From Takakia lepidozioides (Eukaryota; Plantae; Bryophyta), in contig CM060734.1 in NCBI GenBank assembly GCA_030704615.1, positions 8,432,001 to 8,496,000 of the forward strand: a DNA stretch of 64,000 bases. The letters are read 5' to 3'. Of this stretch, positions 22,691 to 64,000 are shown one piece after another (within the stretch, counting starts at the first letter, position 1; each line of letters opens with the position of its first letter). A program made the translations under genes and the position numbers. Under the pieces are notes generated by a model. The model saw only the letters and a list, made by a program, of their open reading frames with translations. It made no database searches and was not told the origin of the DNA.

Positions 22691-22825
22691 TGAATGCGAG
22701 AAGGGATACAAATAGGAAGCACCCCCATGATACACTAGTTGTAGGTCATGACTGATTGTTCTGAGCGGGCCGAGTACTTAGAGATTTCCAACTCTTCTAT
22801 CTTGGAGTTTCCACCTCGGATAGCT

Positions 22826-24453: not shown

Positions 24454-25389
24454 AGTTTCCTGATACAACTTACAAGAGTAGTTGCCTACCTTGCAAGTCT
24501 TGGCGACCACCGCTTCTACCAAGCGGCTGATGGAATCTTCCGACAGCTCTGTGGTCGCACGAGTCATGTTCAATTGTCGGGGATTTGTGCACTTCTTAGC
24601 CATGTGCCCGGGCTCCCCGCAATTAAAGCACACTCCATCAAAGGTCGCCTTTTGTCCGCCATAAGCGGTCGCACCTGATTTTTCTTTTGGAGCACCGAGT
24701 GTCGTCCTGGCGTGTGAAGGCCCTCCCTTTGATTTCCACGTGCTATTGTCGCCGCGTGGCCTATCCCACTTCTTTTCCGGTCAAAAATAGTCACCCTCCC
24801 ACCGGGTCTTCTTGTGGTTCAGCTCCGTACGGCCTTGTCTTTCGCCCCTAGGGACATCCGAGAAACATTCAGCCCTCTCAATTGCCTCGTTCAAAGTCTT
24901 AGGTGGCTTCTCCTCCAACTTCCGCCTGGCCCATGGGGCCAGTCCCGCCACAAAGTTGAAGACCATTTCTGGTTCTGCCATGTCCGCGACTTCGAGCAAT
25001 AACACATTGAAAGCCTGAACATATCCCTGAATGTCATCCGTTTGCTTCAAATTCCTCATCTTGTCCTGGGCGAGCCAGGACGCATTGAGGGGCACAAACT
25101 GTCTCTTCATCAGTTCCTTGAACCCACTCCAGTTCAAGGTTTCCGGTTTTGGACCTCGGTCGTGAAGACGTTTCTGCCACCATTGTTGAGCATAGCCCCT
25201 CAAATAAGTGGGAGCCACTTCCACCCGATCCTCGTCACTCAACTTGGCCGCCCGGAAGTACTGCTCTAGCTCCAAGAGCCAGGTGTTGATTGCCTTCCGA
25301 TTTTGGACGCCCTCGAAGGTGTCGGGTTCTTTAGGCTTCACCTTAAACTTTGCCTTAGTGGAAGTGGCATTAGCCGCCTTCAACACGTT
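24454..25389 (-). pseudogene. gag: Chromovirus gag fragment (same family, inverted)
   Basis: Near-identical to 54500-55430 (KPKEPDTFEG...[14 protein letters not shown]) with a CGA>TGA stop at 24781; cut by LTRs on both sides. Confidence 0.9.
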
Positions 25390-29240: not shown

Positions 29241-30083
29241 CCTTTGATAAAATATATGCAAGGGCTTACACGAAGTCTTGATATTCCACTGGATTCTTAA
29301 GGTCTCGTGTTGACCCACACCCTTACAAATGTTGAATCATGTTGTTACTTTACTCTATGGTTTATGAGAAATGCTAACATACACCTGCTGGTGTCTAAAT
29401 ATAATTCTGGTTTCTTTCATTAGGTTTTGATGGATGGTGCCACTGCAAAGTGGCTGATATGTCACTTTCTTTCTTGACAAAGACCCTAGTGGTCTTGTCC
29501 TTGTCTTGACATGACAAAAGTATCTTCCTTCTCTTCTGCCCCCTCTCTCCCTCTCTGCTTTGTTTTTTTTTGTGGGGAGTGACAAGACAGCTGCTCAGTC
29601 ACTCCCCCCCCCACCTTCTTTTTTTGTTTTCTTGCACCCTCTATGGTGGGGGGAGGTTTGCTATTTCATGAGCATGAGCGGCATGAGCGGCATGAGCGGA
29701 GTAGTAAGACAATCGGTTTTCATGAGCAGAAGTACAAATTTCGAAAATAAAAAACAATAAAAAACAATAATTTAATGCAATGTGTCAGGCAAAACAAATA
29801 TATTATTCGGCCCCTTGAAGGGAAAATTGCAATTTTGACAGTTGTGCTCATGATATTTCGTCTTCCGCTCATGCCAATTCCCAGCGACATGTGCAGATAT
29901 GGCGCCGAATTTCGCGGTAATAGGGTCCGTAACCTGAAAAACGGCGACGTATTTCGCGGTAATAGGTCTCTCTGGCGAAAAATGGTGCCGAATTCCGCGG
30001 CTATAGGTCCCCTCATGACAGGTAATTCGGCGCCATTTTTCCAGTGCATGTTCGGACTTAACATGTTCGGACGTGCAACTCAC

Positions 30084-32151
30084 CTCCCGCATATAGTCGC
30101 CGAACTGGAGGAAACGATAATGCCACCATGCTAGCCAACTGACCATTGCTCCCTCGTCTGATTTCCTTACAGCACCTGACGATGTCCACCAAGCCCGTAT
30201 ACATGCAAACTGTGTCTCTGCATCATCCAAGGTAGGAGCGCACTTCCACGCAAGGCACATGGAACGGTGCTCCTCTCTGAAATCTGGCGCCACGAGCCTG
30301 GTTGTGTACTGCGAAAGGCTCTGCAGAAAATGGAACCCACAAGATCTCTCCTTGCCTTCCATGGGAACATTGGGGTCTTGCCCGTACACCCTTCGGATGG
30401 CAGCCCAATTTGCTTGTGCGTTGTCCGCCATGAAACCACGGAAATTCGGAGGGGGCAATCCCGCCTTGGCCATCTGTTCGTTTATTCCCTGCCAAAGAAG
30501 CATCTCCGATTGTGTGTCCTCTCCTTTCATCTCACAAATAGCAATTGTCATTAGCATCCTGCAGTGGGTGTCGTAGACATGTGCACCCATTGTCACCCAC
30601 TGGTGATTTGTAATTCGCTTGATATGGTCGAACATGACCCAACTGTTTGACAAGTTCCTACTCGTCATCCTGTCGACCAGTTCGACGCCGCTGCCAGGTC
30701 CACACGTGGACATTTTGAATACGAAACAACGATCTGCCTCAGTTCCTTGTCCTGGAAACCTACTTCCATGAATGTAGTCATATCCACATCGTCGCTTCAC
30801 CTCCAGAATGGAGTGCATATCCGAGCCACGCCCAATTTTCTGTTTGCATGAGACAATGTGGTTTCGGACATTCGGTGAACATACGTGGGACACCGACTCC
30901 AGCAATGCCTCCATTTCCTTCTCGTCGAGAGGAACTCTATCGGAGCCGTCTTCCGACATAATTCTGGCCAATGCCATCTTATGGGCGGCTTGGAGCTGTA
31001 TCTGTTTGGGTTTGGCACCCGGTCTCAACTTAACCTCCTCCTGAACGAGCTGCTCTGCTTCGTGGGCAGCCTCCCGCGAGTTCCCCCTCGCCAATTTGTG
31101 ACAATGGGAACCAACGTGTATGCAAGCTCGGGTGAGGTCAGGGAAACGGTGCAACACATAGAACTGCTTGGCATTACAAATAGACATGCAGTGTGGTGGT
31201 TCTTTGCAATGCGCACACTTAAATGTGGAGTTCGGAACCTTCTCCTGAGCTCGAAATGGTTGATGAGCTGTGCCTGTCCAATTGGTCTCGTTCCTGTGAC
31301 CTCTGGATTTAAAGTGGAAGCAAGTTGGGGAGACACACTGCAACGCGCCCGCACAAACAACGTAGTGCACCCGCACACCATCGAGCATCTTCATGCTGGT
31401 GGTTTTGGTAACGCACCAAGGATGACCGTCATGTTTTCTATCCATATCTGTCAACATTCCGGACGCCCTCGAGTAGTCCGCCCGAGGAGGGAACTCAAAG
31501 AAGATATTACCGTCGACGTCGGCGGGAAGGCATGTAACCGATTTAATTGCAAACTTGCTGTAGTCCAGCCCGGCCAGCTCCGACCGGTGTCCCTCCAGGT
31601 GAAGCCCTCGCAGAATTTCAAGAATAGATCGAACTGCGGTGCTCGTGCTGGGAATATGACTCCCTCCTCCACTGACGTCCATTGAGGACTTGCCTGATCT
31701 CCAGGACGACCTCGGAACTTCCATGACCTCGTCTGAGTCGGACAGGTTGTGAACAACCCGGTTCTCGCTCGTCTTCATGGATGGGTTCGGCTCTGGATTT
31801 ACTTCGTTGCGGACTTCTCTCTTTGAGGTAGCCACTCTCTGATTCGCGGATTGTTTCGTGGAAGGCGCCAGGATAGAAGGTGCATTTGGCGGGTAAATGA
31901 AGTCCCCAACAGCCCTGTATATGACGCTGTCTAATGGTGGAACTCGCCATTCCCTGCCATCGTGGAGCACAACAATACTCTCGACAACAAGGCCGTTAGA
32001 GTCCTTCCTTTCCTCCTCCAAAAAAACCGACCCCGGTTTCAGGTGGTATCGAACGCACAGATATTTCTCCATCACCCGGCAGGTGTCCCCTCTGCACGGA
32101 AATGAAGCTCTATGCTCGTGAGGACACTGTAGCGCTCGGGTTTTCCGCCAT
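30084..32151 (-). pseudogene. MULE transposase with GCM/WRKY-like Zn finger, C-terminally truncated
   Basis: Zn ligands CAGALQCVSPTC...CAHC...C...C...HVGSHCH. Catalytic core WVMFDH...FMADNAQA...CGFHF (D, D, CxxH). Ends at donor GAG|GTGAGT (30084) with no downstream exon. An 8-bp deletion near 32123 relative to copy 2 frameshifts the MAENP start. Confidence 0.8.
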
Positions 32152-32439
32152 GGGAGATGTGCACACAAGACTCCTAGGATGGAGTGCGGGGAAGCTCCCT
32201 GGTAGAAGGGGGATGCAGCGATGGGAATGAATGCGATGCCGATTTGTCCGAGCGACGAAGCCTGATCCAAATCCAGGGAGCCAACTATCTCAAAAATCCA
32301 CAGTCAGAGTGTTAATGAACCTTGTCTCCGGAATGCGGCCCCTGGTCTTTGCGCAATAACTGCCAACGGTATGCAGTCAGAAAGTGGGGGGCCGTCCTCG
32401 GCTGAAGGGGAGAAGCCGGCACCGTGCCGTCACATTACT

Positions 32440-39448: not shown

Positions 39449-41161
39449 TCCGTGTAGGTCCCAGGGTCAGCCTACTGAACCCTTGTGAGCAAAACATTTC
39501 AGCTCATTGCTTGTAAATATATTTCCATCTTTCCATCTTCCCTCTTATTCATGTTTCGCACCGGCCTCATCCTTGATTCATGCTTGATCAAACCTATGCA
39601 ATAACCTATGCTATGTACCCGTTAAATCAGAGCAATGGAAGCTATAAGGTCTTCCATCACCCCAAAAACAAACTAGGGAAAAACCAAAAATCACCCCCAA
39701 TTCACCCCCCAAAATCAACCCCAACCCCCCCCCCCCACCAAGCGGAATGCCACGGAGGGTGTTGCTTGCACCAACGCCCTTGCGACGGGTATTTCTGGCT
39801 TGCCACGGGAGGGGGTCGGAAGCTGCGATGGCCCGGAGTCGCTACCACCCATTGCGTAGCAACGCCCGACCCCCCCCCTGCGACTGGTTATTTTTCCTTG
39901 GCGACCTCCGGGGGTCGCTAGTAGCGACGCCGCGGCGTCGCTGTTCCCACTCCCGCCCTACGCAACTTGTTTTTTTTATAAAAAAAAAATAGAAATATGC
40001 GACTCCCGGGAGTCACTGAAACCCACGGCCGGGCGTCGCATAGCCCGACTCCCCTCCGATGACGTTTTTTACGTATGCGACGTCCGGGGGTCACTTTTTT
40101 TTTAGTATGCGATTCTCGGGCATAGGAAAAAAAAACAACGTTGCGACGTCGGGGCATCCAACGCCGTCGGCTGGAGGGCAGCGACGGTCGGCCATCGCTA
40201 GCAGGAGGCCCCTGCCAGCGCCCTGGATCGCCAAGTAGTGACGTCCGAACATCGCTGGAGGAAGACAGAGGCTTGTGACCCCCATCCGTCGCATTTTTTA
40301 CGACGATATTCCAGCGACGCCCTGACAACTGGCATGCGACTCCAGGGCGTCGCAAAAATGGCCCCCCGCCTCAGCTTCAAAATGGCCGTTTAGCGACGCC
40401 GCGGCGTCGAAAACCCCCCCGATTCGGATTTGATCTTGTTGTGATATGCAGTTTCGTAGATCTTTGGGTCAAATAGACTAGAATATTTCCATTTCCACCG
40501 TAGGTCAATTCTCCGTGACCCTTGAGTTTCCGCCGGAATTCCCCGACGTCCCTGCGAGTGGCCGAGACTCCGGTGGAATATAAGCGCTAGTCCCCTTCGG
40601 TAAAGTGCTTGTTCTTGCTGTTACCTACCGGAGGACCTCTGTCCCCAAAAAAGACAGAGCAAGCCTCTTTGAGGCTCGTTCCCTTTTCCTGTAGTGATGG
40701 AGCTTTGACGGATAGTGAGCAATGCACCCTTTTGTTTTGTGAAGAGGAAGTGGACCTGCATGAATGCCCTCCCGCTCTTGACAGACGACGAGCAGCAGCC
40801 ACAGGTAGCCCAAAACACCACCTCCTTCTCACGTTTTTCATGTTCTATTCCCTTTGAATGTTGGAAGTCGCCACAGACTTCCCAAATGCCTGAATGGTGT
40901 TCTGATCACTTCCTATTATGTGGGAAGTCTGCATAGACTTCTCACATACACAACCCTGTTTTCATGGAAGAGAGTAGTGCATCCTAGCTGTTCCCACATC
41001 CACTACTGGTTTGTTAATAGAACAGTGAGTTATGGTGAGCAGTTTGAATTTGGTCGGAGTGCAGGTCTTGATTGGGAAGTCGGTACAGACTCCCCAGAAC
41101 AGTGTAGGAAGTCTGCACAGACTTACAAGTGTGCGCTGAGGTAATTGGGTTTTGTGTGCAG

Positions 41162-41610
41162 ACTAGGGTGTTCTATGCTTTTTGGCTATTGAAGAGCCCG
41201 ACATACGCCTGCGAACTTGGCCGGGATGCCAAGAAACTCGATTCGGACTTCAATCCGGTGGACATCGACATTGTGCGGAATTTCGTCAGCAAAGACAGGC
41301 TGTACACAAGACGTGATGGGACTTGGTTCAGAGGCGCCAAAGAAAAAAGTCCAATGTTCCTACAGACTTTTATGGAGGTGCTGACTAACGTTGGTGGCAA
41401 GATTGTCGACCTCACTGCAAACTGTGGCGCATCGATGGTGGCTGCACAAGTTTGTGGTCGCCACTTACGAGGAGAGCTTGTAAGAGAGAAACTCGTGGGC
41501 CTACAATGTGATATGCCTGCTACCCCAGATCCCGTGGCCACAATGGACTTGACACCTGATGAGTGGTTCAGGGAATCTGGTGACCAAGCTGTGCATGTCC
41601 ATGTACTGGA
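41162..41610 (+). pseudogene. Exon encoding an N6/N4 amino-DNA-methyltransferase-like C-terminal SAM-binding region
   Basis: KEKSPMFLQTFMEVLTNVGGKIVDLTANCGASMVAAQVCGRH matches the beta-class pattern xKPxxLxxxxIxxxTxxGDxVLDxFxGSGTTxxAAxxxGR. Acceptor TGTGTGCAG| at 41161 and donor GTGAGT at 41611. Confidence 0.6.
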
Positions 41611-43309
41611 GTGAGTAAGTTTGTTGTTCCTCTCGTTCATTTTTTTCTAACTAGATAGTCGGCGCAGAATTGACAATTCTTCTTTGCTCTCCTTGCGTGG
41701 CATGGCTGACCATGGTTTCATTTCCTACTAGAGTGATGATATTCCCTCAATTTGCACAAGGAGGCCAACTCCAATGACGCCAGCAACTGGCCGTGCTGCC
41801 TCATTAATGGCTGCACGTCAGGAAGAGGAAAGAGGAGGGCATAGATTGCCGAGAAGAGGGTAGAGTTTCATCGAAAGGCAGCTGCTGTTCTCTTTACCCC
41901 ACCCAAACCTCTGTGTCTTCCTGAGTATGCACCAAAGATGGCAGAAAGGCTAGCTCAGCAGGAGTCCCCCGAATTGTCGAAGAGGCCAATGTGGCTAGGT
42001 GACACTACAAGAGATGAGCGTTTTTAGGACTACGGGTTTGGCGGAGTCATAAAAACTGCACTAGGTACATGACTACAGAGCGCTGAAATGCATTACAGTT
42101 TTAGTTTTATGACTTTGTAGTAATGGATATCACTACATGACTCCGGAAAGTTAGGAAGCATTGGTCAAACATTGTTGACCATGATGACAGGGATGGTTTA
42201 TATGACTAGTGTGATATGTTTGACTACACGTGGACGACGTTTCATGGAATCTTATGACTCCATGACTGAAGATGGTTTCAGAGCTCTATTTATACGACTA
42301 CATCACTACACGTGTCATTTTGAAGGCACATATAATGCAAATAATGTTGCCCATTAGGTTTAAAAAAGTTTAAAAAATTGCTAATAAGGTTGCCCATTAG
42401 TGTAATCGTGAACAGAAAGGAGGGCTGGGACTTGGCGTCTTTTTGTCTCCTGCGCCACACCACATAGCTGAGGGATGGAACGCGATGATAGCAGGATATG
42501 CAGGGGCGTGAGATGGAGGCGTTGAGCAAATGATGCACGAAGGAGGAGAGGAGGAGGAGACGAGACGAGGACAAGCGAGCTCGCCGTTCTTGGGACAGTC
42601 AGCTTGGTCTTAACAAGCATGTTTCAATCTCTGACTACTCATCTACGCTGTAGTGGTTCGATCTGACAGACCAATCCGACATTACCTGACTACAGACACA
42701 AGCAGCACACACAAGAGGTCATCGGTCAAATCCTCCATGGGTCAGGACAGGTCAAGGACAATGTGGTAGGGCACCTTCTTCTTCAACCTATTTCAGCCTG
42801 TGTTGCCCTCTCATCAGACTCGGCCGCAAGATGCATATTGAATTCTGTAAGTTAGGTCGTTGGGTACATCTGTGGTGGTTTGGAGTGACTTTGGCAAGTT
42901 ACTGCCAGTGTGGCAGCAGGGAAGTATCCAAAAACATATAATAGAGGTGAGGAGAAGCGGTGGGGTGAACACTTTCCGACCCCAATGGTGGGACAATGGA
43001 GACAAAAAGGCGAATGCCTGTTGGACTACAGAGAGAAGCAGATGCATTTCAGATTGTGATAAGTAGGGTTGGGGTGTTTTGGGGAAGAACTCCACACCAG
43101 TATGGTTGGGGTGTTTGCTGGTAGAATCGTAGGCTGTCAGAGGCATGGATAGCTGAAGGAGCAGGGATAGAGTGTGGGTCCACATTCATCCAAGAGGGCT
43201 GGATTTCAAGCTCCACATTACCTATGATTCCCTGTGGAAGGATAGGTACAAGAAACCTACATGGGTAGATGGTCAACTGGAAGCGACATGCTGTACTATA
43301 TGTCATTAC

Positions 43310-44290
43310 TGTACTATATGTCATTCCAGAGACTGTCATTGTTGGTCCATGTGTTTTACAACAATGCTATCAATATAAGACTCCTGGTTCGCATTGGAAG
43401 CTCAATCCCTGCAAGTTCATTGTGTGTGAAGCTCAAACTTGCGATTTGAAGATCTTGTAGCCAAGTTCATTCAACCGGAAAGGAGAAATTCTGAAAGCTC
43501 CCAAATTTGATGTGGGCAAGCTTATGGAGGTAAGACTTAGCTTCCCTCCTCTAATGTAAGTGTTGGATAAGTTTATTTAGTGTCGACCTTCACTGCATAT
43601 ATTGGCTCTTTTCTTGGCTGGTTTCATATTTTCTTGGCTGGTATGCTGTTGGTTGGCTTCTTTCATTTCACGTGTGTATAGTGGAAAGGGAGAAGTACTT
43701 TCCTAAGTTCTGCTGCAACAATGTCTTTTTCCAGCCTAGATGTTTTCGATGGATACAAATTGAAGTGCTTTGAATGTTGCTGCAATACTATAATAAAGTG
43801 GAGGGTGCTGAATGCAGTTGGCCTTGCTTCGTGCAGGCATAATCCAGGGAAATGTGGACATAGCTGAAACCCCATGATAGCATTTCCAGAGGACGGTGTG
43901 GATGGCCTCACAATCCAGCATGCAAAATCCATGACAATGTGGAGTTGGCTGAATGGGCAAACAGGTTAAGTGGCGAACAAGCCACGTCACTGGTACATAG
44001 TTGCATGCTTACATAGTACATGAAAGCGTACTATATGTCATTCCCAAAATTGACCATGTTGGTCCATGTATTTTACAACAATGCTATCAATAAAAGACCA
44101 ATGGTTCGCATTGGAAACTCTATCCCCGTAAGTGGCTTGTGCGTGATGCTCAAACTTGTGATTTGAAGGATCTTATACCCCAGTTCATTGCAGAGGTCAT
44201 TGGAAAAGACATTGAGAAGGCAACAACCGTTATCTATAATCTACAGATCCCCTTCAATTTGATGTGGGAAAGCCGGCTGGCTGGAGGTCT
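43310..44290. repeat. Diverged direct repeat (about 250 bp, about 717-bp spacing) in the CACTA non-coding region
   Basis: TACTATATGTCATTCC...TTTTACAACAATGCTATCAATA...GGTTCGCATTGGAA...GCTCAAACTTG at about 43312 and 44029. Confidence 0.75.
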
Positions 44291-44640
44291 AGTCTCACTT
44301 TCACTCATCTAATGTCAGTGTTGTATCCATTGCAATGTGGAGATGTTTGAAACAACATTGGAGCATTTCCAGAGGATGGTCTGGATGGCCTTTTGTGGCG
44401 TGTGCCGAATCCATGGCAAGAAAACATTGCAGGCAGAACCCATGGCAATGGTACCAGCACGGGTTGGTCCAAAGCCAATTGCAACAACAAATGAATAAAG
44501 GGTGCTGAAAGGAAAGCACTCCATAATTGATCATAAAATCCAGTGTCCAAGCATGATATCTTAATGGGAATGCGAAGGGAGTGTTACCACCTTAAACTAT
44601 CATGCATGGTCTATAACTGGAGTGCACAAATCGCGCATAT

Positions 44641-47600
44641 CTAATCTTCATCATCCTCATCTATGTCTGGGTCACTACATGTATCACTGTCTTCATCACA
44701 GACTTCATCTTCTCCAAGGGTTGGCTGAACATCATCACCACGTATACGGGGTGCTCGGAGGTACAAGGAGGCCACCTGCTCTGGAGTAACCGGTACCGCT
44801 CGGCTGCATGTTGGGCCATCAGTAACCACAGTCTCCTCTAGTCTTTGTGGGGCTAACAATCCTTCCACTTCCGCCACATCATCATTATCAATTGATATGT
44901 CGCAGACCACTCTACGTGCTCGGGGGCTCTTCTCCAGGACGACTTTCCACCCCGGCTCCTTCACACAATCAGAAAAAAACACTTGATCAACTGGCCAGGA
45001 AACACAAAAGGTTGCTCAGAAGGTGGAAGCATACGGTTAAAATTGACAAGTGTGAAGCCAGCATCATCCTGCTTCATTGACATAGGTTGACGACCCACGC
45101 GACTCGCCCGTACCCACGAACACAAAAACACTATAGGCTGTGTTTGGCCATAGTCAATTTGCAAAATCTCCCTTATAAGACCCACATATCTTGTAGGTTC
45201 CTCCATGTCATTGCCTGAATTGTTGGTAATGGGCTGGTGCTGGAAAACAGATGAGACTCCACAATCAAAAGACACCATACTTGTTGTGTTCATGCCGGGG
45301 GATGTAACCCTGTAATGGTTACCATACGCTGTCATACTCTTGAATGACAGGGCAGTAAATGATGGAGGCCTTGAAAGATCCAGTAATTCCTCATGTGTTG
45401 TAGGATCAAGCCCATCTGATTGAATTGAGAGATGATCCCGTACACCTTGAGGGAGCCAAACAGCAAATGGAGGACAAGGATGCAAATCAGGAGGGTACTG
45501 AATTGCCGTGGGATTGCTCATGCCTTCCAGCCCTTGCTCCTCACGAAACAAGCGTCGTCTGGCTTCTATCCGTGTGGACTCTGCTTCATATATCCTGTCA
45601 CAATCCGAGGGTCAGCCAGGAGATTGACAGAGGTGGCGTGGGAGACTTGAAAAGACGCCATATGCCAACTAATGATAAATGACTAAAACTTGGAAATCTG
45701 AATGTCAATGAAGTAGATTTCTTACCCCAACATGACTGATAGACGAGGATGGTTCTGAATGATGTACTCATGTACAATATCACACAGGTCATTCAATTTT
45801 GGGCTTTAGAACTTCCTTCCACAACTTCACGTTCCACAGATTCTGCCTCATCTGCATCCCACACCCTTCGTACACTTCCATCAAATCCTGCCATATACTC
45901 TGTGCAAAAACCCAATGCTTCTTCAAATTGGTATCCTTCTGCCATGCTCCCCTGGGCCTTGCCATGTTTCTTACGTAGCCCTTCATATCTTTCATTGCCC
46001 GCTCCATGGGGTACATCCAACGAGATGCTACGGGCCCGCATAAGTACAACTCATCCACTAGGTGAACAACCAGATGTGTCATCACATCAAAAAATGATGG
46101 TGGGAACTCCTTCTCTATAAGACACAGAGTGAGAACTGCTTCAGTTCTCAATTCCTCATACTCTACAGGATTCACCACTTTTGCACACAACTTCTTAAAT
46201 ACACGACATACTCGCAAAATGGCCCTTCGAGGACCACTTGGCATGAGCCCACGGATAGCAAGCGGTATAATTTGCTGCATGAGCACATGATAGTCATGTG
46301 ATTTCATGCCTGACAACTTCTTCTTCACCACATGCTTTTTGAAAGCTGATGCGTAGCCTGTTGGCACTTTCAAGTTCTGCACAATCTCCAGAAAGACTTG
46401 TAACTCAGCCTCAGTGAGGACATAAGGGGCAGGAGGCATAATTAACGTATCTGCTCTGTCAGGATCACGTTGTAGCCACAATTCCGGGCGCATCCCAAGT
46501 AGCTCCAAATCACGGCGAACTTTCAATGTGTCTTTCTCACCAAAGATAGTTTTAATAATATTTTCAGCCAAGTTCTTCTCGCAATGCATTGCGTCAAACG
46601 TGTGGCGGATGAGGAGACCCTACAAAATGAACACATAAGCAATTGAGCATTTACTCATCACAATTTAAACAGAAAACGCAAAAATGTACACAGCCAATTT
46701 AAAGGCCATGAAGGAATTACCTCCCAATAAGGTAAGACATATAAAATTGACAATCGCTTAACTCCATGAGTTTTTGCTGGGTCTGTCCTGCTATCTGGCG
46801 TCCCTCCGTTTTCCACCCATGCAGTGCGAGCTGTTGCAAGGTCCTTGATTTGTGTTCCAGTCTGCGTTTTTGGAGGAGTTCCATGCTCAGTAGCGCCATT
46901 GAACATTCTTGACCTTCTATATGGATGATTGCGGGCCAAAAATCTTCGGTGGCCTAGGAAAACAATTTTTCCACATGTGTGTAACTGCTGTGAAGTCACC
47001 CCGGGTCCACAAGCTGGACAACCAGCATAACCTTTCGTCACTTGACCTGAGAGCAAGCCATATGCAGGGTAGTCATGGATTGACCACATCAACACTGCCC
47101 TCAGTGTGAATTCGCGTTGACCACGAGGACGGGAAACATCATGAGCTGCAATCCCTCTCCATAGTTCCAATAGCTCTTCCACTAGGGGCATCAGGTAAAC
47201 ATCTACGTTGTCCGAGGTAACAGACTCCTTACCAGGAATCAGTAGCGCTAACATGACAAAGAACTTTTTGGTCATTAACCACGGAGGCAGATTGTAATTG
47301 ACCAAGAGAACGGGCCATGTGCTCCAACTTGTGGATTGAGCTCCGTAGGGATTTACACCGTCTAAGGCCAATCCAAATCGCAGAGATCGTGGCTCTGCAG
47401 CAAAATCCGCAAATGTGGTGTCAATGTGTCTCCATGCTTTGCTATCAGCTGGATGTCGAACCAACCCATCCTGGCTCTTATGTCTGTCGTGCCATGTCAT
47501 GAGGTTAGCGATCGATTTACATCGGTACATACGTTTCAACCTTGGAATGACAGGGAAGTGTCGCAATACTTTCTTGGGCACACTTCCACGACCTGGAATG

Positions 47601-48791
47601 TAACGGGAACTGCGGCACACTGGGCAAATGTCTACATTCTCATACTCCCCACGGAAGAGTACACAACCACGCTCACAGGCATGAATCATCGTGTACTGCA
47701 ATCCCATCTTGGCAATCATGGTTTTTGCTTCATAGTGAGTTTTCGGCAATGAATTCTCTCTAGGCAAAAAACTCTTACGCAACAATCCCAGAAGCTCATC
47801 CACAAATGCATTGGTGCACTTGTGGGTAGTGCATGCGTTCAGCAACGTCAAAGTTGCTTGCAGCCGGCTGATGGAGCACCCTTCAAAAAGTGGACATTGC
47901 GACGCTCGGAAGAGTTTATCATACTCGGGATCAACGTGCAGGTGAGCATTCTCATCAAATTCATTGTCTCCGGAATCGTCGAGATCATCGTCATGATCGG
48001 CAAATGTGTGATCGGTTCCACCATGAATGGGGTCCTCTCTGTTTGCATCTGCAAAGAGAAACGCTTCCTGCAATGCACGCTGCATTTCTACCTCCAATCC
48101 ACCACTCTCATCTGCGTTCTCTGTGACATTGGGCTCCCGCTGTGCCGCAGGGCCTTCGTCTTCATCATCTGAATATTCACATCCCTGCATCCCAATAGTC
48201 ATCTTGTGAGTGGACCAACAACGATGTGACACTTGTTCATATTATGACATAGGAGGCACGGTGACGTTGCAGTGATGCAGTCATATTTACGTATGTATCT
48301 TATGAATATACACCCAATCAAAACACGACATTTGTAACCATTGAAGTCATAGTTGCAGTCACTTACTTAGTCATATATGACTACATGACTACACATGACC
48401 AATGAAAACACGACATGTGCATTAATTAAAGTGATAACGGAAGTGGCGTAGTCATACTCACGTCTGTATCTTATGACTTCTTGACTACAATCACCCAACG
48501 AAATGTCGACATGTGGAGAAGAGGATCGTTGCATTCAAAATTCAAACTAAAGTGCTGAAGGGAAAGTGACGATCTTACCGGAAGAGAACAGCGTTGGAGA
48601 AGAGGATCCCTCCCGTGTATCATGTAATGATTCCTCACTGTTTCCAACAAGAGTACTTTTCCTCCATGACACTCATCGCAGTTGCATAGCATTTTTGTAT
48701 GCCCATTCCTTGTGGCATAAGCTTCTTCCATTCGCCATAGACGGTCATCTATTCTACGCCTACGCATCCGTTCGCCACCTGCACTGTACAT
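44641..48791 (-). pseudogene. tnpD: CACTA TnpD transposase (exons 48791-48579, 48184-46721, 46619 onward; distal exon structure uncertain)
   Basis: Transposase-associated CNCDEC..H domain; IHACERGCVLF..CPVC; Transposase_21 core HPADSKAW..GLALDGVNPY..STWPVLLVNYNLPPW..DYPAYG; DAMHCEKN, KSHDYH, WMYPMER; GT-AG introns in phase; frameshifts near 45955 and 44975. Confidence 0.92.
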
Positions 48792-48916
48792 GCTTTGAAC
48801 GTCACCCCTTCCCTCTTTGCATGCTACGCACAGTGCATTGTCTCTAGTTTTGCACCAGCTGCCAATGTGCTATTTCTATATCTATAGTATACTATAAGTA
48901 TCGTTTCTGAGTGTCC

Positions 48917-51900
48917 ATGGTGAAGCGGAAGGTCTTCGAAGTGACAGTCCCTCTCACTGAGTACGAGAAGTTCCGAGAGCGCCGGATTGCTGCCATAAAG
49001 GAGGTGGAAGCAACGTTCAAGCAGTCGATAGATGGGTGAGTTTAGTTCCTGACTTTGGATACCCACCCACTAAACTTGCGATTTGCCTTATCCTCTAACC
49101 TTCCTACAGCGATCATAAGCTTCATAGCACAAATGGGGGCGAGTAGCTGCGACTTGTACAAACAGAGAGGCAAACAACATGCAGTGAGTGACGATTAGGT
49201 TTGAGGAGGGTGTGTCATTAGGCGGGAGATGTCCGCCGTCATTCGTGGGCAGGCATTACGTCCTGGTAGGGTGCGGCTGTGGTTCAGCGTAGGCTTAAGA
49301 GTATTAGGGTATGTATGCTTACATTTGTTTGTGATTGTTTGAGAGGGAGGTCATGGAGGTGTTTGTGCAGGCTTGCGGGAGCGAATCGCCCTCGCAAGCC
49401 ACGCGCTCCGAAGGAAAAAGGTAGGGATCAAGGTCCTGCAAGGCAAAGTGCCAGACTGAAGACGATGAAGACTACGATTCTGCATGAGGGCTCTTCTGAG
49501 GACGATGAGGACGATCCACTCCTCCCACGCCAGTGCGAGGCGAGTGCGTCGTCGGCGGATGCCACGGCAAGCCGAGGAGAACATGCCCATGCTCATGTCG
49601 CAGGACAAAAACGCCCATCATCTACACTACGAACACCTTCTCCGTCTGTGAGTTTTAGTTCTTCACAATGACCATGATTCTAATTATGTATGTTTTTGGT
49701 AAAATCACGAAGAGATAGGGTATGTCTGTCAAAACAGGGAAGTTGGACAATGCAGGGGTCAGCCAAGGCACAATCACAAATGATTTCCACTAGACAAGTT
49801 GAAGTGCCAAAGGCATGATGTCAGGCCAATGTAGACTTCAGTGTGTTCAAATTCTTTGCCCCATGAAACCAACGTCCTGGTACTAAGCTACAATGGCTAC
49901 TTATAGAGATACTTGGGTTACTTATGCACCCAGAATATCAGTAAAACTTGGAGGGATACTTCTCATGGACCCATCAGGTTTGTCCATTTGAATTCTTGCT
50001 ATGGATTTCAGGAACACCCCATACCTAAGAGGGCTCAAAAATGTACTGGGAGGACATCATTGGGGCCAATCAAATTTGGGAGATTTACTGCCCAAGATCA
50101 TACTGAGTTTTGGGTAATCTTGTCTTTACAAATGATATGTGCTTCCAGTTTGTTTTGCCTGAATTCAAGGATTTGCTGCTTGCTGCCTATATGTATGTGT
50201 AATCACCCACATTGTACTGGGGGAATTTCTTTTCAGGGCAAGCACAAGCGCACTGGATCCACGATCCCTGCTGCTAGCAATGGAGATGGCGCCCACAAGA
50301 ACGCAGGAGGTGGCCCTAACTCTCCCAACGTTGTGGGTTCTGTGCCACCAGTACCCCCACCTTATTATGGTATGCCTCAGTACCCACAGTCTGGCACTCA
50401 GTATGGTCAGGGTCAATATGGTGCTCCTCCATATGGGCAGTATGGCCAGTATCCTCCTCCACCATATTTGCCACCCCCTAATAGCTATGGGGGTGGCAGG
50501 CCACCGGAATATCCTCCTGCTTATGGACAGTATGGCCAGTATGGCCAGTATGGTCCTCGGCCTTCTGGCCAACAACCATGGCCACCAGTCCCTACTTGGC
50601 AGGATCCTGCTTTGAATTCTCCTGAGCGCACGGAGGTCTCTGAAGGAGGGGAGGGTGCCGTTTCAAAGAATGATAGAACCAATGCTTTAAGGAGGGCTAA
50701 TAGCTCAGCCAAAATTGAAGCTGCCAAGGTCAAGGAAGAGAGAATAGCTGCAGGTCTTCCTCCCACGGTGATTTTGACGAACCTCAAAGGAGCCCCGTAT
50801 GGTCAGACCCGGAATGTATGGCACGCTGCCCTTAAAGGACAGGCTTATCGCAAGCTAGATTGTTCCCTTGCCATCAACAACCAACCTGATGAAGTTGTAT
50901 ACAAAATCAGAGATCACCTGGCTAAGCTATTTTCATATACGCCGCACGAGTTAAAAGACTTCCACCTAAAACAAACAATTGGCAGAATAATGAAGAGCCA
51001 GCGTTATGAAGCACACACTGCGTGGTTGGGTGGTAAGGGGAAACCCATTACTGTATCTGACGAGGTATGGAACAAGCTTGTAAGTTACTGGCAGACAGAG
51101 GTGTTCCACAAAGTGTCGGGCAACATGAAGAAGGCAAATGGTGCAATTCTGAATCCTACCAAGACTGGCCGTGGTGGGAAGGCAATGGTGGAAGCACGCT
51201 TGGTAAGTGGCATCATCACGACTCTGTATTTTGTTCCTCATTGAATTGCTATGTGTATATAGTCAGCCCTCACATTGCTTACTGACTTGTGGCATGGGTT
51301 TGTTTGTGGCATGGATTAATTTGTAGGAAACACTATCAGGGTGCCCTCCTACATTATATGAAATTCAAGAGGGTTCAGTGTCACGGTTGTCAGCTAGGAG
51401 TGACAGGCGGGTAAGTGTGTTTTCCACGTTTGCTAGAGTGGTTGCTGCATCATAGGTTGCTAGGGTTTTTTTCACGGCTTTTGGCCTGGGTTTTCTTTCC
51501 AATGGTTGTTCATGCTAGGTTTTTGGGTTTGATTCATACTTGGGCAAGTTTTCATGGATTGGCAGGAGGGAAGTCTCGCATATTCTACAGTAGTTGGCAG
51601 GATGGATGGCTTGGACAAACTGGTGGAATCACAAGGACGTGACATGGCAGAATTAAAATTACAGATGCAGAGTATGATTGAGTACCAGAAAGCCATTGTG
51701 ACCAGATTGGGGATTAATCTACCAGGCGCAGGACCAGTGACATCTACGATGGATACGTCTGCTGTGACAGTATCAAAATGTTTGGAATCCCAATTTCAGA
51801 CGGTAACTGGTGCTCACTCTAAGCCCTTATGTCTTCCTGTCACTGATGATCTTTTGAATTTGACCGAGCAGCAGCAGGATACAGGGAAGGCCAGCTGTGA

Positions 51901-53458
51901 GGTACACGTGGAAATTCAGCCCTTGCCACGTACAAAGGCAGTAGCAGTCCAGGGGGCAATGGTGACAGAGCGGCCGGGCACACCGGATTCTGGTATGCAG
52001 GTATGTGGGAGTTTAGATGGGGAGGAAGATGCAGACGGGGACAAAACAAACAAGCAGGTTGCTTTAATTCTCCTGCTCACATGTTGAAGCCAAATGTCAG
52101 TTTACTTCCTGGACCAACGAGGAAGCATTTACTAATTCTGGACTTAAATGGTCTGTTATGTGAATCTTTTCATTCTGCTAATGGGCCTGCATCCCTTCCC
52201 AAAGGTTTTGTGGGGAAGATGTGTGGCAAGAAGATGGTAGTTTTGAGACCACGCTGTTATGACTTTTTGCAAAAGTGTTTTGAACACTTTGAGGTGGCGG
52301 TGTGGTCTTGTTGCCAAGCTCGCAACTTCTTCCCAATGGTGGACTATATTTTTGCAGCCCACACTAACCTGGTTTTCCAGTGGGATGCCCTTCACTGTGA
52401 CGAGGATCCAGTCCTCCCATGCCGTAAGGGGTCTGATTCAAAGCCATTATATTTCAAGAACTTGTCTACAGTGTGGGCAGACTGGCCAGAATGGACTTAT
52501 GAGGACACTGTTCTTGTTGACGACACACCAAGAAAGGCGGCAAACAATCCTCCCTTCAGTGGGATTTTTCCAGAGCCATGGAAGGTGCAACCAGATTCAC
52601 CAACTGATGAGTATCTAACAGAGGTGTTGTGGCCTTTCTTGTGGAAGGCATCGAAAGCTGCCAGTATTCCCAAGTTTTTGGAGTCTCAGCCTGTTTTCGG
52701 ACAACAACCATACAACACTGCTACTGTGAAGGTACAAACATTCTGACAGTGCTCCAGAGGCTACATTTTTGTGGGTTCATTCATTGCATTGCTTTCCTGG
52801 ATGCTTCTCCTCGGTTGCTTGATTAATGCTAGGTTTTCTTTGCAGCTTTTCATGTTGGTTTTTTTTGTTTGATTCATACTTGGATTTTGTTTCTATTCAC
52901 TATTCCTGTTTGCTCATTGCTTTCCGGGTTGATCTCTGGTCTGTGACACAGGAACTTGTGACAAACAAAGGTGATATTGTCGACAAGCCGGTACAGACGA
53001 GGGGCAAGAGTGTCGACCCGGCGAGTAGCCCCCCAAAAGAGGTCTCACCACCACTGGAGACTGCAAATGGAGTAAGTCCAAGCCGTTGTCTTGTCTGTTA
53101 TATTTTTTCCAACCTTGGGGCTCTCTTTAACTCGCAAATGTTGAGTGTCCTAGTCGTGTGTATGTCATGGGTTTTCACATCGTGTTCTTTTTTGTGTGGA
53201 GTTGGGATCACAGTTCAGGGTGGGTGACGAGGTTCGGCTATTGGATGTGAACTCCAAACGCAAGAAATGTGGAGTAGGGCTGATTGTTGCTCTTCAAGGT
53301 GCTGTGGTGGGTTACGGGTACCCTGTTGTGCCCCTTGATTATGCCTGTGTGTACATCAAAGAGGCATGTGTCAGTAACACCCATCTACCATATGTGAATG
53401 GTGTTAGGAAACAGACCGAGTTGGGGCAGGTGGTTGGCCAGACAACACTTTGGAGTCT
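48917..53458 (+). pseudogene. CACTA TnpA-like multi-exon gene (continues 60427-60468 after the LTR insertion)
   Basis: Exon 48917-49035 (LTEYEKFRERRIAA); exon from 49371; exon 50237-51202 (P/Y/G/Q-rich, then VWNKLVSYW..KVSGNMKKAN..TGRGG, Ptta-like); FCP1 region; last exon VRLLD..GVGLI..VYIKEA..LPY..LGQVVGQTTLWS|LKLLKLMELRKG* (Tnp1/En-Spm-like). Confidence 0.7.
52081..52731 (+). CDS. FCP1/NIF-family HAD phosphatase-like domain within the CACTA TnpA-like gene
   Basis: KHLLILDLNGLL, VLRPRCYDFLQKCFEHFEVAVWS, KPLYFKNLSTVW and TVLVDDTPRKAANNPP correspond to HAD motifs I-IV of the DLNGLL subgroup; uninterrupted frame; donor AAG|GTACAA. Confidence 0.88.
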
Positions 53459-54181
53459 TGTCGCGGCCCTTTGCCTTGAGGGCAGGGGGTCGGGACACAT
53501 GAGGGGCTGCCCCTGTGGTGGGGGCAGCGGCAGCGATAGGTATGGGGGGCTGAAGCACCCTTGAGTGCCCAAGGCACTCAAGGAGGCGGAGGCGCTCACT
53601 AGGTGGAGCCCCGCACACCGGGTTGCGGTGGAGGTGGCTCCACAAGGGGTGGTGGTAGCTTAGTGGGACTTAGTGGGGGTGGCATAGGACTCACCATGGG
53701 GAGGAGACCTCGAGGTGGGAGTCGTGGGGAGTCTTGGGACTCATCACGGTCCATTGGGGCCGCGGTGAGTGGGCCAAGACTCACCGCGACTCACCACCGG
53801 GAGTCGAGGGTTTTCGTGGTGGTTCGCCATAAAATGGCATGGCTGGTTATGAAACCCCCGCGGACAGCTACAGAAGTATATATAGGGAGTAGTAACCCCG
53901 AGAACGGTGCAAGCCCGTTGGTGACCAAAAACTAGTGAGTAAGCGAGCGAGCCGGAAAGCGACCAAAGAGTGGGGAGCTGTTCCGGACTGCCATCTACCA
54001 AAGGGAATTCTCCTAGTCCCAAATAGGTGGAGGGTTTAGAGGGAAGCGGAAGGGGACCGTTATGTCCCGGTGAGCAGCCGAAACTCCAAGTTGGCCTGGG
54101 GGCCAGGTTGGGAGTCAGGCGCGCGCATCAAAGCGAGTAACTATGACTTGAAGGGAGTTTACCGAACTGAGGTGTGCGACA
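53459..54181 (+). repeat. 5' LTR
   Basis: TGTCGC...GCGACA termini; TATATATAG at about 53877. Confidence 0.95.
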
Positions 54182-54183
54182 CT

Positions 54184-54195
54184 TGGTATCAGAGC
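54184..54195 (+). promoter_or_regulatory. Primer-binding site (tRNA-iMet)
   Basis: TGGTATCAGAGC, 2 nt after the LTR. Confidence 0.95.
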
Positions 54196-54236
54196 TTAGA
54201 GTTCAGTACGCGATCGTCCTTGGGATTGGCCTCATC

Positions 54237-55080
54237 ATGGGGTCGGGCAAGCCGAAGCGAAAGCGGAACGGCCCAAAAGATGATGATCCGGTGAGCCCGA
54301 TGGGGGCGACGTGTCACCGAGGCGGCCGTTTGAGGAAGCGATTAATGTTTCCGAAAACGAGGCCGCTCAGGAGCGGGAGGAATCCGAGGAGTCGGAGCCC
54401 GAGGAATCTTTGAGAGCTCCGACAAACCAAGAGATGCCTCCCATGCCGGCAGCCTTTTGGGAAGGGTTGTTGGCGCAGTTTGGCGGGACGTTGAAAGACG
54501 TGTTGAAGGCGGCTAATGCCACTTCCACCAAGGCAAAGTTTAAGGTGAAGCCTAAGGAACCCGGCACCTTCGAGGGCGTTCGAAACCGGAAGGCACTCAA
54601 CACCTGGCTCCTGGAGCTAGAGCAGTACTTCCGGGCGGCCAAGTTGAGTGACGAGGATCGGGTGGAAGTGGCTCCCACCTATTTGAGGGGCTATGCTCAA
54701 CAATGGTGGCAGAAACGCCTTCACGACCGAGGCCCAAGCCCGGAAACCTTGAACTGGAGTGAGTTCAAGGAATTGATGAAGAGACAGTTTGTGCCCCTCA
54801 ACGCATCCTGGCTTGCCCGGGACAAGATGAGGAATTTGAAGCAAACAGATGACATTCGGGGGTATGTCCAGGCTTTCAATGTGCTGTTGCTCGAAGTCGC
54901 GGACATGGCAGAACCAGAAATGGTCTTCAACTTTGTGGCGGGACTGGCCCCATGGGCTAGGCGGAAGTTGGAGGAGAAGCCACCCAAGACTTTGAACGAG
55001 GCAATTGAGAGAGCTGAATGTTTCTCGGATGTCCCTAGGGGTGAGAGACAAGGCCGTACGGAGCTGAACCACAAGAAACC
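54237..55080 (+). pseudogene. gag: gag (capsid), with frameshifts near 54310 and 55077
   Basis: MGSGKPKRK start; retrotransposon gag core WLLELEQYF..LRGYAQQWW..LKQTDDIRGYVQAF. Confidence 0.85.
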
Positions 55081-58000
55081 CGGCGGGAAGGTGACTCCTC
55101 CCGACCGGAAAAGAAGTGGGATAGGCCACGCGGCGAAAATGGCACGTGGAAATCGAAGGGAGGTCCTTCACACGTCAAGGCGGCACCCGGTGCTTCGAAA
55201 GGAAAAGCGGGTGGAGCGACTTATGGCGGACAGAAGGCGACCTTTGATGGAGTGTGTTTCAATTGCGGGGAGCCCGGGCACATGGCCAAGAAGTGCACGA
55301 AGCCCCGACAATTGAACATGACTCGGGCGACCACGGAGCTGTCGGAAGATACCATCAGTCGCTTGGTGGAAGCGGTGGTCGCCAGGACTTGCAAGGTAGG
55401 CAAATTTTCTTGTGAGTTGTATCAGGAAACTGGCGCCTTACGAAAAGGGAGTCAGTTATTGTTCGTGGATGGGATAATATCCGGAACTAATGTGTCGTTG
55501 TTGGTGGACACAGGAGCGTCGCACTCCTTCATGACGCCGGCGGCGGCGCGAAAGTTGGGACTCCCGACAAGTGACGTGGGGGCCTCTATTGAGGTGCGCT
55601 CTGCCAAAGGAGAACCTCAGTTGGCGACAAGGTTGGCGTTTGATGTTCCTCTTCAACTGGGGAGTTGGGAGGGACGTGAGAACTTCACTATCTGCGAGAT
55701 CGATGGAGTGGATCTCATTTTGGGAATGACCTTTTTGAGCAAATCCGGAGCGGTCATAGATGGCCGCAAGAGAGTAGTCACGCTGCCATGTGGGAATGGT
55801 GGCGAGGTTTTACGAGTGTCGGAAACGCCCAAATCCGTGGGAGGGCGAATAAACCTTCTATCAGCAAAGGAGTGGGCCGTGGAGGAGACACACGAGTCCC
55901 AGTTTTTGCTTTACATTAGAGAAGTGAAAGGAGAAGGCGATGGGGAGCCGAGCCCAGATTGGATCAAGGGGATTTTGGAGAAATACCAGGATGTGATGCC
56001 GGAGGATTTACCAAGCGGCTTGCCACCGCGAAGAGGAGTTGACCACAAAATTGAGGTGATACCGGGATCGGAACCGCCTGCCAAGGCGCCCTACCGGTTG
56101 AGCCACAAAGAGTTGGTCGAGCTGAAGACTCAGCTCAAAGATCTAATGTCAAAGGGGTACATCCGGCCGAGTAAGTCACCTTACGGAGCCCCGGTGCTAT
56201 TTGCAGACAAGAAGGATGGGACGCTGCGGATGTGTGTCGATTACAGGGCTCTGAATAAGGTGACTATCAAAAACCGGTACCCTTTGCCAAGGATCGACGA
56301 CCTCTTCGATCGGTTGGCAGGAGCGAAGTATTTCAGCCGGATCGACTTGCGCTCCGGCTATCACCAAATTCGGGTGGCGGAAGGAGATGAGGAGAAGACC
56401 GCGTGCAGGACAAGGTATGGTTCATATGAGTTCTTGGTGATGCCTTTTGGGCTCACCAATGCACCAGCGACATTTAGCACGCTGATGAACAGCCTTTTCC
56501 AGGAGTGGTTGGATGACTTTGTGATCGTGTACATCGACGACATCTTGGTGTACTCGAAAACAAAGGAGGAGCACCTGGAGCACCTCAAAAGGGTGTTCCA
56601 AAAATTGCGAGAAGGGAAGCTGTATGCCAAAGCTTCAAAGTGCGAATTCGGGGTCACAAAAGTGGAGTTCTTGGGGCACGTGATTACACAGGATGGGATC
56701 AAAATGGATGACAGAAAGGTGAGGGCGATCTTGGACTGGGAGCCTCCGACTTCGGTCCCGGGAGTGCGATCCTTCCTAGGACTCGCCTCCTATTACCGGA
56801 AGTATGTGAGAAATTTCGCCAAGATCGCGGGGCCGCTGTCGGACCTTCTGTGTAAATCCAAAGTCTGGGTATGGAACACATTTTGTGGCCAAGCTTTTGC
56901 TGAATTGAAGCAGCGGATGACGGAAGCTCCAGTCTTAAAAATCCCGGAGTTCGATCGTCCGTTTGAGATTCATACAGATGCATCGGACTTCGCAATTGGG
57001 GGTGTACTTATGCAAGATGGACGTCCAGTGGCTTACGAAAGTAAGAAACTGAATGAAGTGGAGCGACGGTGGCCGACGCACGAAAAAGAGATGAAGGCGG
57101 TGGTACATTGCCTTGAACTCTGGCGCCACTATGTTGGTTCCAACCCAGTGAAGGTGTTCACGGACAATGTCACGGTGAAGTATTTTGCCACGCAGCCCAA
57201 GTTATCCCCAAAACAACTTAGGTGGCAAGATACTTTGGCAGTGTTCGACGTGGATATCCAGTACAAACCGGGACGGGACAATGTGGTGGCCGATGCTTTA
57301 AGTAGAAAGCAGCAGCTCTTGTTGGTGTACAAGGGCGAGACGGCGCTCCAAAGGAAGATCCGGAAGGCTTGCCGGAAGGATGAGCTGGCAAAGTGCGTGA
57401 TGCAGAACTTGAGAATGGGGGTTAAATCGCAGTTCCACTTGCAAAACGGACTGCTCCGGTATAAGCAAAAACGTCTCTATGTGCCAAAGGGAGGGATCAG
57501 GGATAGTCTCTTGAGAGAATGCCATGATAGCCCGCTTGCGGGCCACGGTGGAGCCAAGCGCACTGCGGCACTCTTGAAGAAAGAGTATTTCTGGCCCAAA
57601 CTGAGGGAGGAGGCAGAGGAGTATGTAAAGACATGCACCACATGCCAACAAAACCGGAGCGAGTATAAAAAGCAAGCGGGGCTGTTACAACCCTTGCCGA
57701 TTCCAGAGGGGACTTGGGAAAGCGTCTCGATGGATTTCATGACTGCTATGCCGCTGTCAAAAGGATTCGATGCAATCATGGTGGTGGTAGATAGGTTCAG
57801 TAAAATGGCCCATTTCATCCCCACCAAGGAGACGGCAACTGCGCAGGAGACAGGGCGACTTTACTTCACCCACGTCTTAAAGCATCATGGAGTCCCGAAG
57901 GATATTGTCTCGGACCGCGACCCAAAGTTTACGAGTAAATTCTGGAGAGCACTTTGGAAGAAGATGGGGACGAGGCTGAAGATGAGCACCGCCTTCCGAC

Positions 58001-63979: not shown

Positions 63980-64000
63980 CCACGCGGGTTACACAGTCCA

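What the first reader, a model, noticed from the sequence alone, without database searches (positions are those of the whole stretch)
40840..41610. Intron-containing bacterial-type amino-methyltransferase (4mC/6mA)-like remnant inside a TE nest
Seen: exon 41162-41610 encodes RGAKEKSPMFLQTFMEVLTNVGGKIVDLTANCGASMVAAQVCGRH. A phase-compatible upstream exon (..LNGVLITSYY..NRT|GTGAGT at 41025) precedes it. The locus sits between a CACAA end (40443) and a CACTA start (42003). Known: this spacing fits motifs X-I of beta-class N6_N4 methyltransferases, and horizontally acquired 4mC methyltransferases are described in Marchantia and bdelloid rotifers. Inference: this is a eukaryote-adapted (spliced), probably TE-borne methyltransferase family that could mark or shield TE DNA. 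Limits: FxGxG is degenerate (TANCG), the residues after GRH look deleted, and no DPPY/SPPY motif IV is visible, so this copy is probably dead.
Basis: partly seen in the sequence, partly recalled or inferred. Interest (0 to 1): 0.78.

Follow-up and report, generated by a model that had tools for sequence, protein, structure and literature searches.

The report
Dead transposon methylase-like gene with palindromes
This is a broken copy of a many-copy, intron-bearing plant gene whose protein is predicted to fold like bacterial DNA methyltransferases and whose intron holds a repeated palindrome; it likely rides in a DNA transposon, and because its relatives lack the catalytic aromatic residue the protein likely binds the element's own DNA rather than methylating it.

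Summary
The methyltransferase-like exon (41162-41614) is real. It belongs to a spliced plant family related to beta-class amino-methyltransferases: HHalign 98.3%, a relative passes PF01555, and its predicted fold matches CcrM and M1.HpyAVI. The true exon remnant is 40697-40804, cut by an unnoticed CACTA end at 40696. The copy is dead: two CACTA insertions, two stops, a frameshift and a 15-nt deletion. The family is multi-copy here and in Ceratodon, where identical copies lie on different contigs. All 19 relatives showing motif IV have no aromatic residue at its fourth position (mostly D-x-P-E/D), against D-x-P-Y in 11 of 11 phage enzymes. The intron holds four copies of a ~25-bp palindrome found nowhere else in the window. 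Best reading: cargo gene of a DNA transposon, like the algal ParB/methylase accessory genes already in print, whose product likely binds its own palindromes as a pseudo-enzyme. The host transposase, a ParB domain and any activity are not shown. It is not MpDN4MT1-like. The scan has noted similar genes on other DNA.

The parts
40439..40443 (-). CACAA-type terminus (right end) of a CACTA-like element lying to the left; not a boundary of the gene
   Evidence: subterminal repeats 39836-40393
40684..40696 (-). Second CACTA terminus (right end), inserted into the coding exon; the 5' half of the gene, including motif IV, is not in the window
   Evidence: a loose end in run X1 before 40696 reads on in frame as the missing strand (table 7); family profile finds one hit in the whole window
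40697..40804 (+). True upstream exon remnant (36 codons, in-frame TGA at 40706), phase-0 donor at 40805
   Evidence: 0 of 2000 shuffles; higher contig depth than the intron; the stop reads as an arginine codon in the X6/X7 record (table 7)
40805..41161 (+).
   Evidence: a main X1 contig lacks about 60 nt of it (tables 5 and 5c)
40858..40886 (.). Palindrome copy 1 (core GGAAGTC-N4-7-AGACT)
   Evidence: hairpin z -3.1
40917..40948 (.). Palindrome copy 2 (best preserved)
   Evidence: hairpin z -7.2, 0 of 200 shuffles
41072..41096 (.). Palindrome copy 3
41103..41127 (.). Palindrome copy 4
41162..41614 (+). Main exon: last core strand, target-recognition region, motifs X and I (41330-41465); 15-nt in-frame deletion at about 41466-41470 removes the motif II segment; acidic tail
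   Evidence: (family profile E 8e-25)
41760..42002 (+). Last exon remnant (start approximate) with a conserved C-terminal module at 41896-41976; 1-nt loss near 41823 and TAG at 41842
   Evidence: against Ceratodon 0 of 5000 shuffles, against L001 1 of 5000; tables 3 and 4
42003..53400 (.). CACTA (En/Spm) element inserted into the last exon (right limit approximate, interrupted by an LTR element): Transposase_21, DUF4218, DUF4216, Transposase_24-like ORF, NIF phosphatase
   Evidence: very high contig depth from 42003 and other flanks in run X5

Best explanation
This locus is the broken 3' half of a many-copy, spliced gene that is likely the accessory gene of a plant DNA transposon, and its intact product likely binds the palindromes of its own element as a catalytically dead or atypical relative of bacterial beta-class DNA methyltransferases. 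Shown: family membership, exon structure, lesions, many copies, four intronic palindromes, and loss of the motif IV aromatic residue in all relatives that show the motif. Predicted: the beta-class fold (model of relative L001). Inferred: (1) a bacterial or phage beta-class methyltransferase was captured and gained introns; (2) it spreads as transposon cargo; (3) an N-terminal domain, likely ParB-type as in the algal genes, recognises the palindromes; (4) the methyltransferase-like domain would dimerise on that DNA and perhaps still bind SAM (motif X Lys/Pro, motif I Asp and last Gly, motif II Glu are kept in relatives), and would regulate or shield the element without efficient base methylation; (5) this copy was killed by two later CACTA insertions and point decay.
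For: Fold and order of motifs: HHalign 98.3%, E 1.6e-14, 199 columns; L001 passes PF01555 (29.6 bits, cut-off 26.7); VIA Z 13.5 (rmsd 3.9, 173 aligned) to M1.HpyAVI and 13.4 to CcrM, against 8.4 for METTL3/14. Mobility: 95 (X1) and 152 (X4) distinct contigs lie on 1363 nt, 62 of 95 and 97 of 152 under 95% alike; exon depth 540-1322 and 836-2845 against 40-47 and 50-69 for the copy-specific contigs listed in table 8. Ceratodon copies on different contigs are 758/758 and 786/788 identical. Palindromes: 4 matches against 0.01 expected; 4 majority letters of other copies move them toward the shared unit. Catalysis: position 4 of motif IV is E 15, D 2, S 1, K 1 in 19 of 19 relatives showing it, Y in 11 of 11 phage enzymes; that residue stacks the target base (PMC4738411 Box 1; PMC10406627). 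Precedent: ParB plus N4/N6 methyltransferase accessory gene in Ectocarpus Sola1-1_Ec32 (PMC12477816); PF01555-bearing PAG2 and inverted-repeat arrays in red-algal Plavaka elements (bioRxiv 10.1101/2025.02.11.637652).
Against: No transposase or element ends were linked to the gene: no genome is held and the only fetched locus is 1941 nt. No ParB hit in the full-length Ceratodon proteins by Pfam, PHROGs or NCBIfam, and the Atlas model of that part is unusable (pLDDT 0.39). Motif IV of this copy's own lineage was never seen; the 19 relatives are at most about 40% identical and form only three lineages. L001 has no such palindrome array in the 1.9 kb held. The palindrome pattern was drawn from these same four copies, so its chance figure is post hoc; copies 3 and 4 folded together give only z -1.4, pairing improves in only 2 of 4 units, and 87 of 127 variant rows were not shown.
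Confidence: 0.55

Rival explanations
1. Active TE-borne amino-methyltransferase: intact copies write 6mA or 4mC on their own element, either because this lineage kept a canonical motif IV or because a conserved Trp about 15 residues after motif IV replaces the lost aromatic.
For: SAM-site residues and motif IV Asp and Pro are conserved across lineages about 30% identical; the P-x-W is seen in all three lineages; algal precedents are predicted active; this lineage's motif IV is unseen.
Against: 0 of 19 relatives have an aromatic at position 4; lineages on both sides of the window copy in the tree lack it (short alignment, long branches); replacing Ser and Tyr of SPPY abolishes rotifer N4CMT activity (PMC8885841); motif I departs from the phage pattern.
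Confidence: 0.2
2. TE cargo gene with a pseudo-methyltransferase domain that has no tie to the palindromes; it acts as a scaffold for transposition or chromatin, and the palindromes are a small foldback remnant or a local duplication.
For: No palindrome array in L001; a main contig lacks the 60-nt unit holding copy 1; no ParB hit.
Against: Four copies in two clusters of one intron and none elsewhere in 64 kb; other copies are closer to the shared unit.
Confidence: 0.17
3. Domesticated host gene family (MpDN4MT1-like developmental methyltransferase) amplified by segmental duplication or passive capture, not a standing TE gene.
For: No linked transposase shown; named relatives are annotated as ordinary Ceratodon genes.
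Against: MpDN4MT1a/b have TSPPY and are a tandem pair (bioRxiv 10.1101/2021.02.12.428880); here there are identical dispersed copies and many decayed ones; no Marchantia-named protein among 12 and 20 hits, most of which are unnamed.
Confidence: 0.08

Closest known systems
Ectocarpus Sola1-1_Ec32 accessory gene (PMC12477816; passages seen)
   Same: Prokaryote-type N4/N6 methyltransferase domain in a repeated eukaryotic element; proposed to bind and modify its own transposon.
   Different: That gene has a reported ParB-like domain and a known transposase partner; here neither is shown, the host is a land plant, and relatives lack the catalytic aromatic. Homology to it was not tested (no sequence at hand).
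Plavaka accessory genes PAG2 and PAG3 of red algae (bioRxiv 10.1101/2025.02.11.637652; section 8 and passages seen)
   Same: PF01555 domain as DNA-transposon cargo; arrays of inverted repeats next to the cargo; moves between transposon families.
   Different: PAG2 is fused to SET and ParB sits in PAG3; no SET or 2OG domain found here. Homology not tested.
Bacterial/phage beta-class amino-methyltransferases (PF01555): M1.HpyAVI, CcrM, M.MboIIA, M.BceJIV, M.RsrI, M.PvuII
   Same: Motif order IV...X-I-II and predicted fold.
   Different: 11-17% identity; introns; motif IV without aromatic; motif X R-G-x-x-E-K-x-P in place of H-x-x-Q-K-P; long N-terminal domain and a C-terminal module.
MpDN4MT1a/b (Marchantia) and N4CMT (Adineta vaga)
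   Same: Eukaryotic, bacterial-derived beta-class fold (N4CMT Z 12.7, rmsd 4.2, 181 aligned).
   Different: Those are low-copy host enzymes with SPPY and shown 4mC activity; this family is multi-copy and lacks SPPY. N4CMT sequence match only E 0.86.

Membership tests
Beta-class amino-methyltransferase superfamily (PF01555) | Profile match above the curated cut-off | tested here: met
   Relative L001 29.6 bits against 26.7; P0011 26.5; 1 of 22 relatives and hits scanned passes. The window exon alone has no hit and is tied in by homology.
Beta-class amino-methyltransferase superfamily (PF01555) | Permuted order, motif IV before motifs X and I, and the beta-class fold | tested here: met
   HHalign; model of L001, pLDDT 67.9; Foldseek and VIA.
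Active N4C/N6A DNA methyltransferases | Motif IV [DNSH]-P-P-[YFW] with the base-stacking aromatic | tested here: not met
   0 of 19 relatives showing the motif (of 53 sequences examined) against 11 of 11 phage enzymes. The motif is absent from the window copy itself.
Active N4C/N6A DNA methyltransferases | SAM site: motif I F-x-G-x-G and motif II acidic residue | tested here: inconclusive
   Asp and last Gly of motif I and motif II Glu are kept in relatives; Phe and first Gly mostly replaced. Motif II is deleted in this copy.
Active N4C/N6A DNA methyltransferases | Methyl transfer to DNA | not testable with these tools
   Needs an assay or modification calls.
MpDN4MT1 / N4CMT 4mC writers | SPPY motif IV | tested here: not met
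MpDN4MT1 / N4CMT 4mC writers | Common clade with MpDN4MT1 in a tree | not testable with these tools
   No MpDN4MT1 sequence could be fetched; the tree held only family and phage rows.
ParB/methyltransferase accessory genes of DNA transposons | Multi-copy, dispersed, recently duplicated | tested here: met
ParB/methyltransferase accessory genes of DNA transposons | Inside an element with terminal repeats and a transposase | not testable with these tools
   No genome; both CACTA ends next to the gene are insertions into it; L001 is too short.
ParB/methyltransferase accessory genes of DNA transposons | ParB-like N-terminal domain | tested here: inconclusive
ParB/methyltransferase accessory genes of DNA transposons | Repeated inverted-repeat sites in the element | tested here: met
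   4 palindromes in the intron; binding not tested; none in L001.

The most novel reading that the evidence does not exclude
Land-plant DNA transposons carry a parS-like self-recognition system built on a bacterial methyltransferase whose D-x-P-D/E active site is a new, working chemistry: the protein binds palindromes in its own introns and writes a non-5mC mark there that shields the element from host silencing.
Probability: 0.15. Interest if true: 0.8.

Novelty: new variant of a known kind. Interest (0 to 1): 0.45.

Why it matters
Transposon cargo genes that recognise and modify their own element are in print as a proposal for brown, red and green algae, and VANDAL is named as the only shown case. 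My 10 literature searches showed no paper on such a gene in land plants; most subscription journals are not searched. A moss-type family with a changed catalytic motif and a candidate binding site gives a direct test in a tractable plant of whether these proteins act by binding or by methylation. It also warns against counting PF01555 hits in bryophytes as 4mC/6mA writers. This copy itself is dead.

Tried and rejected
Motif IV remnant in 40444-40696: profile search found none, and the stretch ends in a CACTA terminus. Whole-genome search: no genome held. First homologue search ('longer') found nothing among 117 candidates. First fold, 12-row alignment, pLDDT 40.8: not used. Prokaryotic or viral donor: pattern scans of viral contigs and of prokaryote genomes confirmed no relative; phage tblastn listed only weak matches (listed rows E 0.03-9); these scans see close relatives only. 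Palindrome pattern in viral contigs: 0. Rfam on 39500-42700: 2 matches far below gathering score. Expression: no RNA holder listed; runs guessed to be RNA did not cover the main exon, which is no evidence either way. Link to the Mutator-like element at 29.8-36.9 kb: considered, not testable. One profile comparison failed in the tool. The journal version of the Marchantia paper is not held. Earlier-finding look-ups by sequence returned nothing. Supplements of the cited papers were not seen; they may hold alignments that bear on homology to PAG2, Sola1-1_Ec32 and MpDN4MT1.

Full report
1. Observation. The window is a plant-type TE nest with LINEs, Ty3 elements and an En/Spm element (Transposase_21 E 6.5e-75, DUF4218). 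No genome is held. That the host is a land plant is inferred from these elements and from the named relatives. Alone, the exon has no hit in Pfam, PDB sequences, PHROGs or NCBIfam; PADLOC gives MTase_II at E 0.042 and the Atlas a lead to PF01555 at 0.84.

2. The family. phmmer over 1.84 billion proteins gave 12 hits at E<=0.001; 11 belong together and P0008 (repetitive insect protein) was dropped. A region search gave 3 proteins, a profile search 20, and a metagenome scan 1 confirmed locus of 105 pattern matches, L001, with the whole domain in one exon. The only named members are Ceratodon purpureus hypothetical proteins of 758-810 aa and one 111-aa fragment; UniRef labels one a DNA methylase N-4/N-6 domain protein. 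L001 passes PF01555 (29.6 bits, cut-off 26.7, profile 27-216 of 221). The 36-row family alignment against 11 phage DNA methylases gives HHalign probability 98.3%, E 1.6e-14 over 199 columns, with motif IV in register. The family profile finds M1.HpyAVI in the PDB at E 9.3e-6. An AlphaFold2 model of L001 (pLDDT 67.9, pTM 0.68) matches CcrM, M.BceJIV and M1.HpyAVI by Foldseek (best E 2.7e-6) and by VIA (Z 13.5, rmsd 3.9, 173 aligned; N4CMT 12.7; METTL3/14 8.4). In a short tree (94 columns, long branches) the 23 family rows form one clade (SH-aLRT 98) apart from the 11 phage rows, with the window copy inside. Pattern scans confirmed no close prokaryotic or viral relative.

3. Gene anatomy, corrected. 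Relatives have a phase-0 intron just before the strand that opens the window's main exon. Position 40696 is the end of a further CACTA terminus, and a contig of run X1 continues upstream of that point in frame with the strand that the window lacks. The family profile finds no other piece in the 64 kb, so the 5' half with motif IV is gone from the window. Downstream, a last exon carries a module conserved in the window, Ceratodon and L001 (0, 1 and 9 of 5000 shuffles for the three pairs) and is cut by the CACTA start at 42003. Compared with other copies the window copy also has a TGA at 40706, a 15-nt deletion after GRH, a 1-nt loss near 41823 and a TAG at 41842. It is dead. Both CACTA ends point away from the gene and cut into its exons, so they are later insertions, not its carrier.

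4. Many copies. On 40640-42002, 95 contigs of run X1 and 152 of run X4 (one sample) were laid, 62 of 95 and 97 of 152 under 95% alike; summed depth over the main exon is 540-1322 and 836-2845, against 40-47 and 50-69 for the copy-specific contigs listed in table 8 (an identical piece has 14.6 and 35.7). The tool warns that depth is no copy number; I read it only as tens of copies. Exons are covered deeper than introns. In Ceratodon, P0002 and P0013 are 758/758 identical on contigs of 16.8 and 24.0 Mb, and P0017 and P0051 are 786/788 identical under tags 1G and 9G of two assemblies (reading the tags as chromosomes is recalled). This points to recent mobility. A linked transposase was not shown.

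5. Catalytic motifs. Of 53 sequences examined, 19 show motif IV; position 4 is E 15, D 2, S 1, K 1, never aromatic, against Y in 11 of 11 phage enzymes. The 19 fall into three lineages that lie on both sides of the window copy. That residue stacks the target base (PMC4738411 Box 1, passages and outline seen; PMC10406627, passages), and SPPY to APPA abolishes N4CMT activity (PMC8885841, passages). Against this reading: the window lineage's own motif IV is unseen, Asp and Pro are conserved, and a conserved Trp downstream could substitute; the model is unreliable there (pLDDT 44-52).

6. Palindromes. The intron holds four copies of a ~25-bp palindrome and the rest of the window none (4 against 0.01 expected; the pattern was drawn from these copies). 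The best folds at z -7.2, another at -3.1, the last two together at -1.4. Of 9 majority letters shown for the intron, 4 move the copies toward the shared unit; pairing improves in 2 of 4 units; 87 of 127 rows were not shown. L001, which lacks the intron, has no such array in 1.9 kb. I noticed the repeats; reading them as binding sites follows earlier scan notes.

7. Mechanism. Most likely (0.55): an accessory gene of a DNA transposon whose product binds the element's palindromes through an N-terminal, likely ParB-type domain and uses a SAM-binding but probably non-catalytic methyltransferase fold to regulate or shield the element. Rivals: an active 6mA/4mC writer (0.2), a scaffold unrelated to the palindromes (0.17), a domesticated host family (0.08). 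ParB was looked for and not found by HMMER in the Ceratodon proteins; the test is inconclusive.

8. What is known. [quoted passage not shown] MpDN4MT1a/b are a tandem pair with TSPPY (bioRxiv 10.1101/2021.02.12.428880, passages). Passages of PMC12344493 and PMC9477723 added nothing on this family. Ten searches showed no land-plant description; supplements and the journal version of the Marchantia paper were not seen. The scan has noted similar genes in other genomes; look-ups by sequence found no look-alike, so whether they are the same family is untested.

9. Verdict. Interest 0.45.

Noticed in passing
window 40417-40682: This stretch, spanning the CACAA end, lies in one very deep uniform contig (depth 8158 in X1, 2475 in X4; a 9292-nt record in X5; also in X6 and X7), about 96% alike. 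Organelle or rDNA-like DNA sharing a CACTA junction; unexplained.
   Followed up: partly
window 40699-40728 and 41872-41980: Runs X6 and X7 (two studies, RNA is a guess) each hold a ~1 kb record in which sequence like the upstream exon directly precedes 41872, not at splice sites: an internally deleted derivative.
   Followed up: no
window 29772-32303 (-) and 61506-63981 (+): 843-aa ORF without Pfam hit, Mutator-like by recalled motifs, in two inverted copies 91-95% alike, with long arrays of inverted repeats at 32.4-36.9 kb and 60.6-62.3 kb.
   Followed up: partly
window 51901-52746: NIF-type phosphatase ORF (PF03031, E 8.2e-17) inside the CACTA element, a possible second kind of cargo.
   Followed up: no
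window 53459-60429: Ty3 element with both LTRs and an open 1250-aa pol ending in a chromodomain; a partial related copy at 22825-25388.
   Followed up: no
window 1589-2146, 11612-12240: Exon-like ORFs of a host gene interrupted by LINEs; resemblance to SPG15/spastizin is recalled, no Pfam hit.
   Followed up: no
L001 1050-1250: The last exon ends in an acidic F/L-x-D-I-E-A motif shared with the Ceratodon proteins; this part is cut off in the window.
   Followed up: partly
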